Position numbers and translations under genes: made by a program. From an uncultured Bacillales bacterium (GTDB lineage Bacteria; Bacillota_I; Bacilli_A; RFN20; CAG-826): a DNA stretch of 64,000 nt. Under the pieces are notes generated by a model. It worked only from the letters and a program-made list of their open reading frames with translations, had not been told where the DNA came from and ran no database searches. Location of the stretch: contig CAJJXG010000006.1 of NCBI GenBank assembly GCA_905197045.1, forward strand, positions 9,555 through 73,554. Direction: 5' to 3'. Positions 40,956 to 45,427 of this stretch are shown here, in pieces (position 1 is the stretch's first letter; the number at the start of each line of letters is the position of its first letter).

Positions 40956-41366
40956 CTAATTTTTCTCGATAAGTTCAAATAACTCTAAAAAATCATCAGA
41001 CAATTTATAGTTATTAATCTCACTTTTATTTATCCAAAAGACTTTTCCTTCTTCACTACTTTTAATTTCACCACTAAAATCATCACTTTTATAAAGTAAG
41101 CCTAAATAGCGAACGTTATCACCCCAGTCCCGCTCTTTAATAGCGCAAAATTTAACTGAGTGAAGAGTTAAACCAGTTTCTTCTTTAATTTCACGAATTA
41201 CACTTTCTTCAAGTGTTTCTCCTTTTTCAACATGTCCTCCTGGAAAAGAAAGACCTGGCCAATCAGATTTAACTCGATCAATAACCAAAATCCTCTCACC
41301 TTTATAAACCATACACATGTTTGAAAGGATGCATTTTGTAATTTTATCGTTCATATCAATCAACAA
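40956..41366 (-). CDS. Nudix hydrolase (MutT-like)
   Basis: 136 aa. Nudix box GGHVEKGETLEESVIREIKEETGL. An alternative ATG start lies at ~41354, 1 nt after the upstream stop. Confidence 0.85.
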   Translation of the reverse strand: MLIDMNDKITKCILSNMCMVYKGERILVIDRVKSDWPGLSFPGGHVEKGETLEESVIREIKEETGLTLHSVKFCAIKERDWGDNVRYLGLLYKSDDFSGEIKSSEEGKVFWINKSEINNYKLSDDFLELFELIEKN

Positions 41367-41841
41367 CTACATCTCTATTTTTATCAATAAAATAGCTCTT
41401 TAACACTCTTTGGTCCATTCTTAAACAATTGTCAAAATCAATTTTATCAAATGGAACGAACTTAATTTCTTTACTTTCACCATCTTGAGATGAAATTTTA
41501 ACTTTTGTTGAATCTACTCTTCCAAGAAAAATAACATCAGTATAATAAGTTACATCTTGATTAGGATATTCCATTCTTCCTTCTTCTCCAGAAAAAATAC
41601 CGAGTAAACTTATTTCATCTTCATTAAATTTTATTCCAGTTTCTTCATAAGTCTCTCTTATAGCGCCAGTCTTAACCTTTTCGCCCATATTTAAAGCTCC
41701 ACCTGGAAAAGAATATTTTCCATTATCACTTCTTGTTTCTAGAAGAACCTCATCTTTCTCATTCAATACTAAAATAGCTACTCCTATAGCCATGATTTCC
41801 TTATGACCAACTATATTTCTAATATATTTTATATAATCCAT
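41356..41841 (-). CDS. Nudix hydrolase
   Basis: 161 aa. Nudix box GGALNMGEKVKTGAIRETYEETGI. Confidence 0.85.
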   Translation of the reverse strand: MDYIKYIRNIVGHKEIMAIGVAILVLNEKDEVLLETRSDNGKYSFPGGALNMGEKVKTGAIRETYEETGIKFNEDEISLLGIFSGEEGRMEYPNQDVTYYTDVIFLGRVDSTKVKISSQDGESKEIKFVPFDKIDFDNCLRMDQRVLKSYFIDKNRDVVVD

Positions 41842-42002
41842 ATTTTCTTTCCTTTACCTAAACTATTTTAATAACTTTTCTTAAATAATTAAAGTTAACG
41901 GAATTTTTTAAGTTAAATACACTAACAAAATTGAAATAATAATTTAATAAGATCAAATAATAAACTTTTTTTACTTATTTTGAATCGCTAAATAAATTGA
42001 TA

Positions 42003-42111
42003 CTTAAAAATACGCATTTAATCGTAATTTTTGCCATTAATTCTTACCTCTAGGACATGGTCATGGACATAAATAATGTCTAAGACATTTTTGAAAATGT
42101 CCTTGACATTT
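42003..42111. repeat. left copy (R1) of a ~110-bp direct repeat bracketing the COG2865 gene
   Basis: CTTAAAAATACGCATTTAATCGTAATTTTTGCCATTA...CTCTAGGACATGGTCATGGACATAAATAATGTCTAAGACATTTTTGAAAATGTCCTTGACATT. About 90% identical by eye to 43542-43653. Contains the palindrome AATGTCTAAGACATT (~42075-42089) and seven GACAT/ATGTC half-sites. Confidence 0.85.
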
Positions 42112-42132
42112 CTCTTTATTATTTTCTATTAA
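42103..42132 (+). promoter_or_regulatory. candidate promoter of the COG2865 gene, embedded in the end of R1
   Basis: TTGACA (~42103-42108)-(18 nt)-TATTAA (~42127-42132), ~30 nt upstream of the ATG. The -35 forms part of an ATGTCC/TTGACAT inverted pair. Confidence 0.4.
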
Positions 42133-42161
42133 AATCTTATATTTATTTAAAGGAAATTTTT

Positions 42162-43511
42162 ATGATTATTGGAAGAGAAACAGAAACCATCGAATTCAAA
42201 AAAAGTACCAGCGAATTAAAAGAGGCGCTTCAATCCATATCTGCTATTTTAAACAAGCATCAACATGGCGTTATTTATTTTGGTGTAAAAGACAATGGCG
42301 AAGTCGTAGGACAAAAAATTGAAAAAGATACATTAAGAGATATCTCAAATAAAATAAGAGAACAAATCAAACCAGAGTGTTTCTATAACGTTGAAAAGAG
42401 AAACGACGATGAGAATAACACTTTTATAGAAGTATCTTTTAGTGGAGAAAGAATTCCATATTCAGCTAATGGTAAATTTTATTTAAGATTTTCAGATCAA
42501 GATCGATTAATGACAAATGAGGAACTTGAAAAATTTTTTCTTAATATTCAAAAAAATTATTCTATATGGGAGAACGAAGATTCTTTTACTAGTATAAACG
42601 ATATAGATGAAGCTTTACTTGAAAAGATGATTAATAAAGGTTACGAAAACAAACGACTTCATTTTAAATATACTAATTCCTATGAAGTTTTAAAAAAGTT
42701 AGGATTAATTGCTAAAGGTAACCAAAACCTCAATAATGCAGGTAACGTATTATTTTCATCCTTAAATCCAATAACTCTTAAATTAGCCACTTTTGCGTCA
42801 GAAACAAAAGAAACATTTTTAAAACTTGAATATTTTGAAGGTAATATCTTCACTTGTATTGAAAAAGGAATTTCTTATGTTTTAAACGCAATAAATTGGA
42901 ACGTAACTTTAGATGGTTCACCTTTGAGAAAAGAAACTCCAGAGATTCCTAAAGAAGCATTAAGAGAGATTATAGTTAACGCTTTTAGTCATGCTCGTTA
43001 TAGAAGTTCGACTACTTTTGAAATTGATGTTTTTAAAGACCGTGTAACAATATATAGTCCTGGCTACTTTCCATTAGGATACACTCCTGAAGATTTTGCA
43101 TACAACCATGAAGAACCAATTATGTTGAATCCTAAGATTATTCACGTTTTATTTAAAACGTGTCAGATTGAATCTTTTGGTTATGGATTTGAAACAACTT
43201 TTAAATTATGTAAAGAATTTTCGGTACCATATAAGTACGAGAACACAAAATCAGGCTTTAAATTTATTTTTTATAGACCTTTATCATTAAAATATTCAAC
43301 TTTTGATTTAAACGATACTGAAACCAAAGTTTTAAGGCAAATTATAAAAAATTCAACAATTAAAATTAAAGAAATAGCCGCTAATATCAATAAAAGTGAG
43401 AAAACAGTATCACGTGCTCTTAAAAAATTAAAAGAAGAAAACTTTATATATCGTGAAGGCGATGATTTTAGAGGTGAATGGATTGTTAATAAGGATTTAT
43501 ATAAAAAATAA
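42162..43511 (+). CDS. AlbA_2 (Schlafen-like) + HATPase_c_4 + C-terminal wHTH protein (COG2865 family, often annotated as a 'RecG-like putative DNA-binding protein')
   Basis: 449 aa. The N-terminus GRETETIEFKKSTSELKEALQSISAILNKHQHGVIYFGVKDNGEVVGQ is the AlbA_2 signature. The central REIIVNAFSHARY motif matches HATPase_c_4. The C-terminus is an HTH (TIKIKEIAANINKSEKTVSRALKKLKEENFI). Confidence 0.8.
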   Translation: MIIGRETETIEFKKSTSELKEALQSISAILNKHQHGVIYFGVKDNGEVVGQKIEKDTLRDISNKIREQIKPECFYNVEKRNDDENNTFIEVSFSGERIPYSANGKFYLRFSDQDRLMTNEELEKFFLNIQKNYSIWENEDSFTSINDIDEALLEKMINKGYENKRLHFKYTNSYEVLKKLGLIAKGNQNLNNAGNVLFSSLNPITLKLATFASETKETFLKLEYFEGNIFTCIEKGISYVLNAINWNVTLDGSPLRKETPEIPKEALREIIVNAFSHARYRSSTTFEIDVFKDRVTIYSPGYFPLGYTPEDFAYNHEEPIMLNPKIIHVLFKTCQIESFGYGFETTFKLCKEFSVPYKYENTKSGFKFIFYRPLSLKYSTFDLNDTETKVLRQIIKNSTIKIKEIAANINKSEKTVSRALKKLKEENFIYREGDDFRGEWIVNKDLYKK

Positions 43512-43541
43512 TCACATTTAATTTAACTGTTTATAAATATT

Positions 43542-43653
43542 CTTAAAAAAATACGCATTTAATCGTAATTTTTGACATTACTACTTACCTCTAGGACATG
43601 GTCATGGACATAATTAATGTCTTAGACATATTTGAAAATGTCTAAGACATTTT
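43542..43653. repeat. right copy (R2) of the ~110-bp direct repeat
   Basis: CTTAAAAAAATACGCATTTAATCGTAATTTTTGACATTA...CTCTAGGACATGGTCATGGACATAATTAATGTCTTAGACATATTTGAAAATGTCTAAGACATTTT. It lies between two convergent genes. The TTGACA -35 of R1 is replaced here by TAAGACA. Confidence 0.85.
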
Positions 43654-43676
43654 AATGTTAAATTAAGATGCTAAAT

Positions 43677-44972
43677 TCAAGGTCTTAAACAATTAATTGG
43701 AATAATAAAGATACCTTCTTCGTTTTTATAGCAAGCTCCACTTGAAGTAATAATTGCTTTAAATTTAGGAAGTTTTGCTTTTGCTCGAACTAATTTGTCT
43801 TCAAATCTAGTAAGAGATCTAATTCCATCTTGAATATTTTCAGGACTATTAATTTTAACTTCTATCGCACCGAATTCACCATTTGGTAATTGAACAATTA
43901 TGTCGACTTCTTGACCGCTGCTATCCCTATAATGTTTTAAACTAGCGCCAATACTTTCAGCATAAACTGAGACATCTCTTACAACAAAGTCTTCAAAGAA
44001 AAGACCAAAAGATTTAATATCATTTAATAAATCATCAGGTTTAATATTAAGTGCTTCGCAAGCAATAGATGTATCAATAAAATGTCTAGTCGGAGCACAC
44101 CTTACTGCTACCGAAGATCTTAAATTGATGTTATATGAAGGCATATCATATATTAAAAATAACTTTTTCAATATAGTCTCATAATCATTAAAAGTGTTTT
44201 CGTCTAATTTGCTTCTTTCGCCAGATTCTAAAATATCATTTATCATGGTAGTTTTTTTGGCTTGTGTAGATATGTTACGAGCATAGGATTTTAAAATCAG
44301 TTTTAATAAATCTATATTTTTATTCTTGTAAAAGTCATTATATTCGTTATTCTCTCTAAATAAACCTGAATAATAATTGTCTGTAATTATCAAAGAAATG
44401 CTTTTTTCTGAACAAACGGATAAAGGCCAACCGCCACGGCAAATTAAAAAGGCAATATCAAATAAAGTAATTGGATTATCGTTTTCAAGCAAAGTTTTGA
44501 AATTATCTCCACCATGAAACAAATCTTCTATTGATACAATGCCAAAAGATTCTTCTGACTCATAAAGAGTGAATGGCTTTATATTTAAATCGACTATTCT
44601 TCCAGCACCAGAATGTAATATCTCTGAACTATTAAGTGGCATGGTGCTACCTGTTGTTAAATACTTTCCAAAAACATATTCATCATCCAAATCTTTTTTA
44701 ATTTGATTCCACACATCTGGACACCTTTGCCATTCATCAATTAAATGTGGTTTATCGCCTTCTATAGCCAATCTAGGATTTCCTTTGATAACCATTAATG
44801 TATTATTATCGCTTAAATAAGTTATCGATTTAGCATATCTTTTGCATAATGTTGTTTTGCCTGAAAATTTTGGACCATTAACTAACACACATCCAGAAGT
44901 TTTCATTTTAAGTTCAAGAACTTTTTCAATAATTCTATTTTTATATAAGCCATCTTTAATCATCATATCCAT
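43677..44972 (-). CDS. AAA+ ATPase with C-terminal DUF4143 (COG1373 family), paralog 2
   Basis: The track ORF (442 aa) starts at a TTG at 45005. The in-frame ATG at 44972 (MDMMIKDGLYKNR...) aligns better with paralog 1. Walker A VNGPKFSGKTT, Walker B HLIDEWQ. C-terminus HYRDSSGQEVDIIVQLPNGEFGAIEVK. Both paralogs end in a ...P[LI][GN]CL[KR]P tail. Confidence 0.85.
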   Translation of the reverse strand: MDMMIKDGLYKNRIIEKVLELKMKTSGCVLVNGPKFSGKTTLCKRYAKSITYLSDNNTLMVIKGNPRLAIEGDKPHLIDEWQRCPDVWNQIKKDLDDEYVFGKYLTTGSTMPLNSSEILHSGAGRIVDLNIKPFTLYESEESFGIVSIEDLFHGGDNFKTLLENDNPITLFDIAFLICRGGWPLSVCSEKSISLIITDNYYSGLFRENNEYNDFYKNKNIDLLKLILKSYARNISTQAKKTTMINDILESGERSKLDENTFNDYETILKKLFLIYDMPSYNINLRSSVAVRCAPTRHFIDTSIACEALNIKPDDLLNDIKSFGLFFEDFVVRDVSVYAESIGASLKHYRDSSGQEVDIIVQLPNGEFGAIEVKINSPENIQDGIRSLTRFEDKLVRAKAKLPKFKAIITSSGACYKNEEGIFIIPINCLRP

Positions 44973-45005
44973 ATTATAAATATCTATTTGCTTAAAAACA
45001 ATCAA

Positions 45006-45073
45006 ATTCAGTGTTTTGAAAGTTTTAATTCAGTGTTTTGAAAGATTATGATTCAGTGTTTTGAAAAGTAATA
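45006..45073. repeat. three tandem 22-23-bp direct repeats, proximal cluster upstream of COG1373 paralog 2
   Basis: ATTCAGTGTTTTGAAAGTTTTA / ATTCAGTGTTTTGAAAGATTATG / ATTCAGTGTTTTGAAAAGTAAT. The core TTCAGTGTTTTGAA contains the inverted half-sites TTCA-N6-TGAA. Confidence 0.9.
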
Positions 45074-45192
45074 ACAAGTACTAAAAATTTGGGATTAAAC
45101 TATAAAAATATTGTAAAAAAGTAGATTTTATAACGATTTTACTATCTTTGATAAAGCAAATACTTAATTTTCTGAATTAAATGCTTATTCAT

Positions 45193-45261
45193 TTTCAGTG
45201 TTTTGAAATGTTTTGTTTCAGTGTTTTGAAAGGTTTTAATTCAGTGTTTTGAAAATTATTA
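45193..45261. repeat. three further tandem copies of the same 23-bp repeat, distal cluster
   Basis: TTTCAGTGTTTTGAAATGTTTTG / TTTCAGTGTTTTGAAAGGTTTTA / ATTCAGTGTTTTGAAAATTATTA. Separated from the proximal cluster by ~120 bp of unique AT-rich DNA. Confidence 0.9.
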
Positions 45262-45427
45262 TTTCTAGATCTTAAATTAGACTAAACCGCTTTTAATTAG
45301 TATCATTTATAAATGTTCATTTTAATTATGGCTATAATCTTCTGATTCTATTTCTCATTATTTTTCTATAAAAATTTACAATTCATTCTTTTACAAGAGA
45401 GAAGGTAATTTATAAAATAATAAAGAT

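What the first reader, a model, noticed from the sequence alone, without database searches (positions are those of the whole stretch)
42003..43653. A ~110-bp direct repeat packed with ATGTCT/AGACAT palindromes brackets the COG2865 gene
Seen in sequence:
- 42003-42111 (R1) and 43542-43653 (R2) are ~90% identical direct repeats that enclose exactly one gene (42162..43511).
- Each copy holds GGACATGGTCATGGACAT followed by two palindromes ~21 bp apart. R1 has AATGTCTAAGACATT and ATGTCCTTGACAT. R2 has AATGTCTTAGACAT and AAAATGTCTAAGACATTTT.
- In R1 the last half-site doubles as a TTGACA -35 box for the gene. In R2 that box is mutated.

Inference: there are three possibilities. The repeats may be operator sites for the wHTH at the C-terminus of the encoded protein (autoregulation). 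The repeat pair may mark the gene as a cassette that was inserted or can be excised by recombination between R1 and R2. R2 may also act as a terminator or roadblock between the convergent genes.
Basis: partly seen in the sequence, partly recalled or inferred. Interest (0 to 1): 0.6.

Follow-up and report, generated by a model that had tools for sequence, protein, structure and literature searches.

The report
Twin operator repeats bracketing a Schlafen gene
A probable antiviral Schlafen-type nuclease gene in a human-gut bacterium sits between two copies of its own control region; these copies are most likely the protein's own binding sites, and recombination between them has deleted the gene in sister strains.

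Summary
R1 (42006-42111) and R2 (43547-43652) are 97/106 identical, occur nowhere else in the 1.41-Mb genome, and enclose one gene. That gene encodes a Schlafen/AlbA_2 + HATPase_c_4 + winged-helix protein (COG2865; the 'pSlfn HisKinase-HTH' class) with an intact E-x4-E-x-K RNase motif.

The GACAT/ATGTC half-sites in R are this clade's private 'word'. The same word overlaps the promoters of orthologs down to 55% identity, including one in a 53%-GC Clostridia genome. Other clades carry other words, and the winged-helix reading helix changes with the word.

In 21 of 33 relatives the promoter word recurs at a second, distal place: in frame in the linker before the winged helix (14 genes), or just past the stop codon (7 genes, including this one). 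R2 is this lineage's distal cluster. It also forms the only terminator-like hairpin in the region.

R1 and R2 evolve in concert (85-89% identical within a lineage, 64-72% between lineages). In the sister lineage, nine sampled contigs carry a single R between the same flanks, with at least two different exchange points.

All three first-reader ideas hold in part. Protein binding, DNA looping and termination remain untested.

The parts
41872..45369 (.). 3.5-kb inserted island: R1, Schlafen gene, R2, AAA_14/DUF4143 gene and its repeat arrays
   Evidence: Homology to the island-free outgroup G001 ends at 41871 and resumes at 45370, with only ~23 nt between these flanks in G001. NUDIX1 and ppk1 are directly adjacent in G001, G026 and G074.
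42006..42111 (+). R1, the upstream copy of the repeat (weak similarity extends to 41992)
   Evidence: 106 nt, 97/106 identical to R2.
42053..42070 (+). Three direct hexamers GGACAT-GGTCAT-GGACAT, preceded by CCTCTA (long half-site CTCTAGGACAT)
   Evidence: Exact in both copies; 0 expected by chance. The long half-site matches CTCTTGGACAT / TCTAAGACAT at the promoters of the 63-64% orthologs.
42076..42088 (.). R1 palindrome 1, ATGTCTAAGACAT
42097..42109 (.). R1 palindrome 2, ATGTCCTTGACAT (imperfect); it contains the putative -35 TTGACA at 42103-42108
   Evidence: The -35 is not conserved: TAGACA in L022.
42127..42132 (+). Putative -10 TATTAA, 18 nt after TTGACA (inferred)
   Evidence: Read from the sequence; not called by the consensus scan. 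The sister lineage has TTGTTA-17-TATAAT at the equivalent place.
42162..43511 (+). Gene for the 449-aa Schlafen/AlbA_2 + HATPase_c_4 + wHTH protein (COG2865; pSlfn HisKinase-HTH composition)
   Evidence: Pfam PF04326 1.3e-18, PF13749 3.4e-10, PF13412 6e-10. E6-x4-E11-x-K13 motif present.
43547..43652 (+). R2, the downstream copy of the repeat (weak similarity extends to 43533)
   Evidence: It lies between the stop codons of two convergent genes.
43616..43651 (+). R2 double palindrome (two perfect ATGTCTWAGACAT sites); also a 14-bp hairpin with tail TTAATGTTAA
   Evidence: The only terminator-like site in 41800-43800. RNA fold -17.9 kcal/mol, z -5.6, against -11.5 for R1's version.
43677..45005 (-). 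Convergent AAA_14 + DUF4143 ATPase gene (PADLOC candidate PDC-S01), part of the same island
   Evidence: Pfam; PADLOC PDC-S01 3.2e-58.

Best explanation
R1 and R2 are two copies of the control region of a self-regulated Schlafen-type (COG2865) gene.

Shown:
- The cores of both copies are arrays of the half-site GACAT/ATGTC. Two 13-bp palindromes lie exactly 21 bp apart, with further half-sites upstream.
- This word is private to the gene's clade and overlaps the promoter in orthologs.
- A second, distal cluster of the promoter word is the norm in this family, either in the linker before the winged helix or just past the stop codon. R2 is that distal cluster in this lineage.
- R1 and R2 exchange sequence (concerted evolution).
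- R1xR2 recombination has removed the gene in sister strains, leaving a solo R.

Inferred:
- Dimers of the protein's C-terminal winged helix bind the palindromes. At R1 this covers the -35 region and represses the gene, keeping a potentially toxic RNase at a low level.
- The R2 cluster is bound as well. It either cooperates with R1 through a ~1.5-kb DNA loop (as in lac O1/O2, gal OE/OI, or lambda OL/OR), or docks the protein.
- As an RNA hairpin, R2 also terminates the gene's transcript between the two convergent genes.

Gene loss is a by-product of the direct orientation of the two copies. It is not a dedicated excision mechanism.
For: Uniqueness:
- Only two R copies exist in the genome, and all four ATGTCNNNGACAT sites in the genome lie in them.

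The word belongs to the gene:
- GACAT-N5/6-ATGTC straddles the -10, with a third ATGTC at the RBS, in 64, 63, 57 and 55% orthologs in unrelated contexts.
- ATGTCTTAGACAT-ATTGACAGA-ATGTCATAGACAT-gcTATAAT lies upstream of an ortholog in a 53%-GC Clostridia MAG.
- All 7 substitutions between the window and the 95% relative, within the two 57-bp cores, avoid the pentamers.

Family rule:
- The longest exact repeat in the 140 nt upstream has a median of 12 nt, against 8 downstream and 7.7 in shuffles. 23 of 32 genes are individually significant; Mann-Whitney p = 9e-5.
- Each clade has its own word, and the recognition helix differs by word class.

Distal cluster:
- Promoter 8-mers recur in a sharp peak in 21 of 33 genes: 14 at nt 1100-1199 (linker, in frame) and 7 at nt 1300-1499.
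- Within the GACAT clade, the 63-64% orthologs carry it in the linker. The window lineage lacks it there and has R2 instead.
- Independent brackets occur in other clades, with convergent downstream genes.

Recombination:
- R1-R2 identity is 0.85-0.89 within lineages and 0.64-0.72 between orthologous copies across lineages.
- Solo-R alleles with an intact AAA_14 gene: L094, L097, L098, L100-L103. With an AAA_14 remnant: L095 and G067. Gene-plus alleles: L061, L096 (plus 7 similar places), L099.
- The solo-R alleles show two different R1/R2 mosaic structures.

Polarity:
- Outgroups lack the whole island.
- G067 has no GACAT-class paralog; its best hit is 44% identical.

Hairpin:
-. R2 is more stable than R1 in all three genomes that have both. 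The palindrome centres are complementary in all 7 copies and swapped together between the window's R2 and L022's R2.
Against: - No binding, expression or RNA-end data exist.
- The link between word and recognition helix is confounded with phylogeny.
- The promoter is weak by consensus and its -35 is not conserved.
- 12 of 33 relatives show no distal cluster by the exact 8-mer test, so the distal cluster is not obligatory.
- Conservation of R2's half-sites could be maintained by gene conversion from R1 rather than by selection on R2.
- In the sister lineage, R2's hairpin is weaker (-13 kcal/mol) and lacks a clear U tract.
- The complementary palindrome centres fit a symmetric protein site as well as an RNA hairpin.
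Confidence: 0.7

Rival explanations
1. R1 and R2 are the ends of a minimal single-gene mobile cassette. The encoded protein recognises both ends, synapses them, and promotes excision as a 1541-bp circle and re-integration (site-specific or protein-assisted).
For: - Clean presence/absence of exactly the R-to-R unit in sister strains.
- Brackets recur around family members in other clades.
- Earlier scan notes report similar brackets and clean losses elsewhere (unverified leads).
- The distal cluster always adjoins the wHTH-coding segment.
Against: - No recombinase, transposase or integrase domain in the protein or the island.
- Only one locus holds R in this genome, and it is the same locus in both lineages.
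- Outgroups lack R together with the whole 3.5-kb island; there is no R-only empty site.
- Solo-R alleles have exchange points in different parts of R, as expected of homologous rather than site-specific recombination.
- In most relatives the distal cluster is inside the coding sequence, and in several it is inverted relative to the promoter array, which cannot support excision.
Confidence: 0.08
2. R2 is a functionless relic: the promoter region of a lost second tandem copy, or another accidental duplication. It persists only through occasional gene conversion from R1.
For: - Tandem arrays of COG2865 paralogs exist in other genomes (L028-L030).
- R2 has lost the -35 and lacks a -10.
- R as a whole diverges between lineages at least as fast as flanking DNA.
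- Some solo-R copies already carry half-site mutations (L103, L095), which shows how quickly unconstrained copies change.
Against: - A distal copy of the promoter word is found in 21 of 33 relatives, at two preferred positions.
- It arose independently as a post-stop bracket in at least two other clades with convergent neighbours.
- Within the GACAT clade, the linker cluster is lost in exactly the lineage that has R2.
- R2's palindromes are more perfect than R1's in both lineage-A genomes.
- All pentamers are kept in R2 across ~20% flank divergence.
Confidence: 0.14
3. R2 exists mainly as a bidirectional transcription terminator or roadblock between the convergent Schlafen and AAA_14 genes. 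Its similarity to R1 simply reflects re-use of a palindromic sequence.
For: - It is the only terminator-like site in the 2-kb region.
- Strong hairpins on both strands: -17.9 and -19.8 kcal/mol, z -5.6 and -6.9.
- R2 is more stable than R1 in all genomes that have both.
- There is a compensatory swap of the two palindrome centres.
- The solo R keeps this position next to the AAA_14 3' end.
Against: - The repeat covers 106-120 nt, including about 65 nt that are not part of the hairpin.
- There is no U tract on the AAA_14 strand.
- The sister lineage's R2 hairpin is weaker and has no clear U tract.
- This reading does not explain the intragenic linker clusters in relatives.
Confidence: 0.08

Closest known systems
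Prokaryotic Schlafen proteins, 'HisKinase-HTH' composition (Perez Taboada et al., Nat Microbiol 2026, PMC13056530); COG2865
   Same: Same domain order: Slfn/AlbA_2, then HATPase_c_4, then a winged HTH. Same E-x4-(E/D)-x-K active-site motif. Defence-island setting, next to a PDC-S01 candidate defence ATPase.
   Different: The paper reports defence only for DUF262- and Ig-like fusions. The HisKinase fusions it tested did not score, and HisKinase-HTH was not tested. It does not mention operators, autoregulation or flanking repeats; there are no occurrences of these terms.
Auxiliary distal operators and repression loops: lac O1/O2 (O2 inside lacZ), gal OE/OI (OI inside galE), lambda CI at OL/OR flanking the immunity region (my own knowledge of these systems)
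   Same: There is a cluster of palindromic sites over the promoter, plus a second cluster of the same sites 1.1-1.5 kb away. The second cluster lies inside or just beyond the transcribed gene. As with lambda OL/OR, the two arrays flank the regulator's own gene and each holds several sites.
   Different: Binding, oligomerisation and looping are not shown here. The regulator is fused to a nuclease and an ATPase-like domain. The two clusters are copies of a 106-nt segment that recombine and delete the gene.
Direct-repeat-mediated deletion and concerted evolution by homologous recombination (general RecA-dependent process; my own knowledge)
   Same: The deletion leaves one hybrid repeat between the original flanks. 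Exchange points fall in the longest identical tracts (19-39 nt in the sister lineage; 28 and 30 nt here). Paralogous copies are homogenised within lineages.
   Different: Here the repeats are probably functional regulatory DNA of the deleted gene rather than IS elements, rRNA operons or REP sequences.
Private repeat arrays at promoters of PDC-S01 (COG1373, AAA_14/DUF4143) genes, noted earlier in this scan (e1-3236661, e1-3236660)
   Same: A defence-island gene family in which each member carries its own repeated word at its promoter. One such gene is the convergent neighbour in this island, with a 3+3 TTCAGTGTTTTGAAA array.
   Different: A different protein family and a different word layout (same-strand 22-23-bp iteron-like repeats). 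No bracket around the gene is reported.

Membership tests
pSlfn HisKinase-HTH / COG2865 | N-terminal Schlafen/AlbA_2 domain | tested here: met
   PF04326, E 1.3e-18, residues 6-117.
pSlfn HisKinase-HTH / COG2865 | Catalytic E-x4-(E/D)-x-K motif (PMC13056530) | tested here: met
   E6-TETI-E11-F-K13 in the window's protein. The motif is present in 30 of 30 aligned relatives.
pSlfn HisKinase-HTH / COG2865 | Central GHKL-like HATPase_c_4 domain and C-terminal winged HTH | tested here: met
   PF13749 3.4e-10 (residues 287-368); PF13412 6e-10 (residues 383-429).
pSlfn HisKinase-HTH / COG2865 | tRNA cleavage / anti-phage activity | not testable with these tools
   Needs expression and phage challenge. 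The HisKinase-HTH class was not tested in the paper.
Autoregulated repressor with auxiliary distal operator (lac/gal/lambda type) | Cognate sites overlapping the regulator's own promoter | tested here: inconclusive
   The palindromes overlap the putative -35 here, and overlap the -10 in the 55-64% orthologs. Promoter activity and binding are not measured.
Autoregulated repressor with auxiliary distal operator (lac/gal/lambda type) | A second cluster of the same sites at a distance, in cis | tested here: met
   R2 lies 1541 bp from R1. A distal cluster is present in 21 of 33 relatives.
Autoregulated repressor with auxiliary distal operator (lac/gal/lambda type) | Protein oligomer bridges both clusters; the distal site enhances repression | not testable with these tools
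   Needs EMSA, AFM or 3C, and reporter assays.
Site-specific mobile gene cassette (integron cassette, small integrative element) | A dedicated recombinase encoded in or next to the element | tested here: not met
   No integrase, transposase or resolvase domain in either island gene.
Site-specific mobile gene cassette (integron cassette, small integrative element) | Fixed crossover point within the repeats | tested here: not met
   Solo-R alleles switch from R1-like to R2-like either in the 5' 19-nt tract or in the 39-nt core.
Site-specific mobile gene cassette (integron cassette, small integrative element) | Copies at several genomic sites | tested here: not met
   There is one locus in this genome. 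It is the same NUDIX1-ppk1 locus in every genome that has R.
Dispersed intergenic repeat (REP/MITE-like) | Many copies per genome, unrelated to the neighbouring gene | tested here: not met
   Two copies in 1.41 Mb. The signature is absent from 58 of 60 genomes of the genus.
Intrinsic terminator | Stable stem-loop followed by a U-rich tail at the 3' end of a gene | tested here: met
   43616-43651: 14-bp stem, tail TTAATGTTAA; -17.9 kcal/mol, z -5.6.
Intrinsic terminator | RNA 3' ends at the site | not testable with these tools
Known RNA family (Rfam) | Match to a covariance model | tested here: not met
   Only a chance-level snoRNA hit, E 0.7.

The most novel reading that the evidence does not exclude
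The commonest class of bacterial Schlafen defence proteins (Slfn-HisKinase-HTH) is, as a rule, tethered to its own gene. Each protein reads a private DNA word that is written twice, at the promoter and beside the wHTH-coding segment. Under this reading the two bound arrays are more than an autorepression device. They would form a protein-DNA synapse that stores the nuclease in an inactive, DNA-docked state, or lets the gene leave and re-enter the chromosome as a one-gene unit. Presence/absence switching of the defence gene would then be a built-in property.
Probability: 0.12. Interest if true: 0.85.

Novelty: new variant of a known kind. Interest (0 to 1): 0.55.

Why it matters
Bacterial Schlafens were shown only in 2026 to be antiviral tRNases. 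Their most common DNA-binding class (about 19% of them) has no known role for its winged helix.

This locus, with its relatives, gives a concrete and testable prediction:
- The winged helix reads a private word at the gene's own promoter.
- It also reads a second cluster of that word 1.1-1.5 kb away.

The prediction supplies the binding sequences needed for EMSA, reporter and looping experiments.

The locus also shows, in natural human-gut populations, how the regulatory architecture of a defence gene doubles as the substrate for its recurrent clean loss. This is one simple mechanism behind the rapid turnover of defence islands.

Tried and rejected
- Dispersed repeat: rejected. There are two copies in the genome, and the signature occurs in only 2 of 60 genomes of the genus.
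- Partial hits to the first ~30 nt of R in relatives: these proved to be generic AT-rich hairpins unrelated to this locus.
- Known RNA family: none.
- The 5' part of R as a terminator hairpin: too weak (-3.3 kcal/mol, z -1.7).
- L034/G067 as a pre-insertion 'empty site': rejected. Outgroups lack R and the whole island, R carries the gene's own word, and G067 also holds a decayed AAA_14 remnant.
- PADLOC assignment of the Schlafen gene to a named system: only weak domain-level hits.
- A repeat statistic based on 8-mers with one mismatch was uninformative in AT-rich DNA, because shuffles score as high. It was replaced by the longest exact repeat and by shared exact 8-mers.
- Pattern hits in Aquabacterium (downstream of glmS) and in a Bacteroidales MAG (long tandem arrays) have no COG2865 gene nearby and were set aside.
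- The metagenome scan returned only one relevant locus, L061.
- I could not resolve how R2 arose: tandem gene duplication followed by loss of the second copy, or a templated copy of the promoter region.
Full report
OBSERVATION

- R1 (42006-42111) and R2 (43547-43652) align without gaps over 106 nt with 97 identities. With two small gaps the similarity reaches back to 41992 / 43533.
- They enclose one ORF, 42162-43511 on the + strand.
- This is not chance and not a dispersed repeat. The 18-mer is expected 0.00 times in shuffles. The whole repeat has only these two copies in the 1.41-Mb, 29.8%-GC genome. ATGTCNNNGACAT occurs four times in the entire genome, all four inside R1 and R2.
- No Rfam family matches.

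THE GENES

- The enclosed gene encodes a 449-aa protein with Schlafen/AlbA_2, HATPase_c_4 and winged-HTH domains. This is COG2865.
- The same composition is called 'HisKinase-HTH' in the 2026 survey of prokaryotic Schlafens, where it makes up 19.2% of them (PMC13056530).
- The catalytic E-x4-(E/D)-x-K motif defined in that paper is present (E6...E11.K13), and in all 30 aligned relatives.
- The convergent neighbour (43677-45005, - strand) is an AAA_14 + DUF4143 ATPase that matches PADLOC's defence candidate PDC-S01 at 3e-58.

THE LOCUS IS AN INSERTED ISLAND

- In three outgroup species of the genus (G001, G026, G074), the flanking NUDIX1 and ppk1 genes are directly adjacent and divergent.
- Against G001, homology ends at 41871 and resumes at 45370, with about 23 nt between the flanks in G001.
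- The 3.5-kb island therefore comprises R1, the Schlafen gene, R2, the AAA_14 gene and that gene's own repeat arrays.
- Among 60 genomes of the genus, the double-palindrome signature exists only in the window's genome and in G067, titled 'uncultured Mollicutes bacterium UMGS238'.

R CARRIES THE GENE'S OWN 'WORD'

- Orthologs at 64, 63, 57 and 55% identity lie in unrelated contexts. Each has GACAT-N5/6-ATGTC straddling a TATAAT-like -10, plus a third ATGTC at the ribosome-binding site. The extended half-sites are CTCTTGGACAT / TCTAAGACAT, which match CCTCTAGGACAT in R.
- A 53%-GC Clostridia MAG has ATGTCTTAGACAT-ATTGACAGA-ATGTCATAGACAT-gcTATAAT in front of an ortholog whose N-terminus is 76% identical.
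- Between the window and a 95% relative (L022), all seven substitutions in the two 57-bp cores fall outside the pentamers.
- Other clades of the family carry other words: ATGGCATAGTAAA, GATACAATAAAT, AAATGTATCGAT, GGTGACAT, TTACGACA and TGAYAATGTAAA.
- Across 32 genes, the longest exact repeat in the 140 nt upstream has a median of 12 nt, against 8 downstream and 7.7 in shuffles. It is individually significant in 23 genes; Mann-Whitney p = 9e-5.
- The wHTH recognition helix differs by word class. For example, it is x-S-[EDQ]-K-T-x-[SYA]-R in the GACAT class and x-S-[IV]-R-T-x-Q-R in the ATGGCATAGTAAA class. This fits self-recognition, but it is confounded with phylogeny.

A SECOND, DISTAL WORD CLUSTER IS THE FAMILY NORM

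- I counted exact 8-mers shared between each promoter (-140 to -1) and 100-nt bins along the gene and 300 nt beyond it. This gives a sharp second peak in 21 of 33 genes, against a background of 0-5 per bin.
- In 14 genes the peak is at nt 1100-1199. This is the linker before the wHTH, where the word array is written in frame and encodes repetitive peptides such as NDTINDTINDTT, NVSINVPINVSIN and VVNSVVNNVVN.
- In 7 genes the peak is at nt 1300-1499, just past the stop codon: the window, L022, L061, L086, L087, L089 and L090.
- In L087, L089 and L090 the downstream neighbour is convergent, so this cluster is not the promoter of a next gene.
- Formal direct repeats bracket those genes: L089 132 nt at 70%, L086 82 nt at 74%, L090 40 nt at 93%, L087 54 nt at 65-76%.
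- Within the GACAT clade, the 63-64% orthologs have the distal cluster in the linker. L028's linker reads cctcttgGACAaaaatATGTCcaagagaaatTGTCcaaGACA and mirrors its promoter. The window's lineage has no such words in its linker and has R2 instead.
- The linker arrays are inverted relative to the promoter arrays in several clades (L082, L084, L085, L091). This argues that what is conserved is a second binding cluster, not a substrate for excision.
- I found this rule, before reading earlier notes of this scan that describe the same design in other genomes. Those notes are unverified leads, and they pointed me to the 2026 paper.

CONCERTED EVOLUTION

- The sister lineage B (L061, a 72.7-kb human-gut contig) is 95% identical in DNA to G067's locus. 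It has the same arrangement: NUDIX1, R1, an 81% ortholog, R2 and an intact AAA_14 gene.
- R1 and R2 are 85-89% identical within a lineage. Orthologous copies between lineages are only 64-72% identical, while flanking DNA is about 78-82%.
- Lineage-specific changes are shared by both copies: GGTCAT in lineage A, TGTCTA in lineage B.
- The most parsimonious reading is one ancestral bracket that is homogenised by gene conversion. Independent duplications at the same place cannot be strictly excluded.

RECOMBINATIONAL LOSS OF THE GENE

- G067 has a single R. Its left flank is R1's left flank and its right flank is R2's right flank (the AAA_14 3' end). It also has an internally deleted AAA_14 remnant.
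- I looked up contigs that encode the identical NUDIX1 protein of lineage B. This gave three allelic states:
  - Gene-plus: L096 (plus 7 similar places), L099 and L061.
  - Clean solo R next to an intact AAA_14 gene: L094, L097, L098, L100, L101, L102 and L103.
  - Solo R plus an AAA_14 remnant: L095, as in G067.
- The solo-R copies are R1/R2 mosaics of at least two kinds:
  - L098 is R1-like up to ATATCCTC and R2-like from GACATTTTT onward, so the exchange lies in the 39-nt identical core.
  - L094, L095, L097, L101 and L102 switch in the 19-nt 5' tract.
  - This fits homologous rather than site-specific recombination. Exchange between strains could also have produced one of the two mosaics.
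- G067 has no GACAT-class paralog; its best hit is 44% identical. Some solo copies carry half-site mutations (L103, L095).
- In the window, the longest identical R1/R2 tracts are 30 and 28 nt.
- Lineage A contigs (L022, L093) are all gene-plus.

R2 AS A HAIRPIN

- R2's two perfect palindromes form the only terminator-like site in 41800-43800.
- The fold energy is -17.9 kcal/mol (z -5.6) with a U-rich tail on the gene's strand. On the other strand it is -19.8 kcal/mol without a U tract.
- R2's hairpin is more stable than R1's in all three genomes that have both copies: -17.9 vs -11.5, -20.1 vs -15.5, and -13.0 vs -9.0.
- The centre bases of the two palindromes are complementary in all seven R copies. 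They swapped together between the window's R2 (T/A) and L022's R2 (A/T).
- This last point fits either an RNA hairpin or a globally dyad-symmetric protein site.
- The 5' part of R folds only weakly.

VERDICT

- The repeat is the duplicated control region of a probably self-regulated Schlafen defence gene.
- Shown by sequence comparison:
  - The word is private to the clade and sits at promoters.
  - A distal copy is a recurrent family feature.
  - The two copies here exchange sequence.
  - Recombination between them has deleted the gene in natural strains.
- Inferred: wHTH binding, autorepression, loop formation or docking at R2, and termination at R2.
- The mobile-cassette reading is not supported. 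There is no recombinase, there is a single locus, the exchange points vary, and the distal clusters in relatives are intragenic or inverted.
- I found no published description of operators or flanking repeats for this protein class.
- The regulatory logic resembles lac O1/O2, gal OE/OI and lambda OL/OR. I therefore rate it a new variant of a known kind.

Noticed in passing
window 45006-45261: Two clusters of three ~22-bp direct repeats (TTCAGTGTTTTGAAAG...) lie between the AAA_14/DUF4143 gene start and ppk1. G067 has 4+4 copies at the same place. Earlier scan notes (e1-3236661) already treat this as the PDC-S01 gene's own repeat operator.
   Followed up: partly
L079, L074, L077, L082, L085, L091 (nt ~1100-1170 of each COG2865 gene): The promoter word is written in frame, as a 12-nt tandem array, inside the linker before the wHTH. 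It forces repetitive peptides (NDTI, NVSI, VVNx). The orientation relative to the promoter array differs between clades.
   Followed up: yes
L035:4900-5196 and L039:190-560 (Bacteroidales MAG Cd354_bin6): There are long tandem arrays (13-20 units of 22-23 bp) at contig ends. Each unit holds an ATGTCNNNGACAT-type palindrome followed by an A or T run. No COG2865 gene is nearby and the function is unknown.
   Followed up: partly
L032, L037, L038 (three Aquabacterium genomes): A conserved pair of adjacent ATGTCTCAGACAT / ATGTCTCGGACAT sites lies just downstream of a glmS-like gene (the classical Tn7 attachment region) and next to a small HNH-like ORF. It is unrelated to COG2865.
   Followed up: no
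L028:4340-4775 and L029:1490-1712: These loci hold tandem COG2865 paralogs. Between them lie two further private word arrays: GGGTGTTCAAA x3-4 right after the first gene, and CCATACAAGTAA x3 abutting the second gene's -35. ASCH and AAA_14/DUF4143 or ATPase_2/DUF234 genes follow.
   Followed up: no
L024:2700-2790: The 64% ortholog sits immediately downstream of a tRNA gene. This is a typical island integration site and a different context from the window's locus.
   Followed up: no
window 40956-41841: Two adjacent, overlapping NUDIX hydrolase genes and a GDSL esterase gene are conserved next to ppk1/ppx across the genus. ppk1 itself is present in only 12 of 60 genomes of the genus.
   Followed up: no
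G000 contigs C4, C6, C14: There are five further AAA_14/DUF4143 paralogs (23-40% identical) in this 1.4-Mb genome, and one partial COG2865 paralog on C30 (40% identity over residues 215-444).
   Followed up: no
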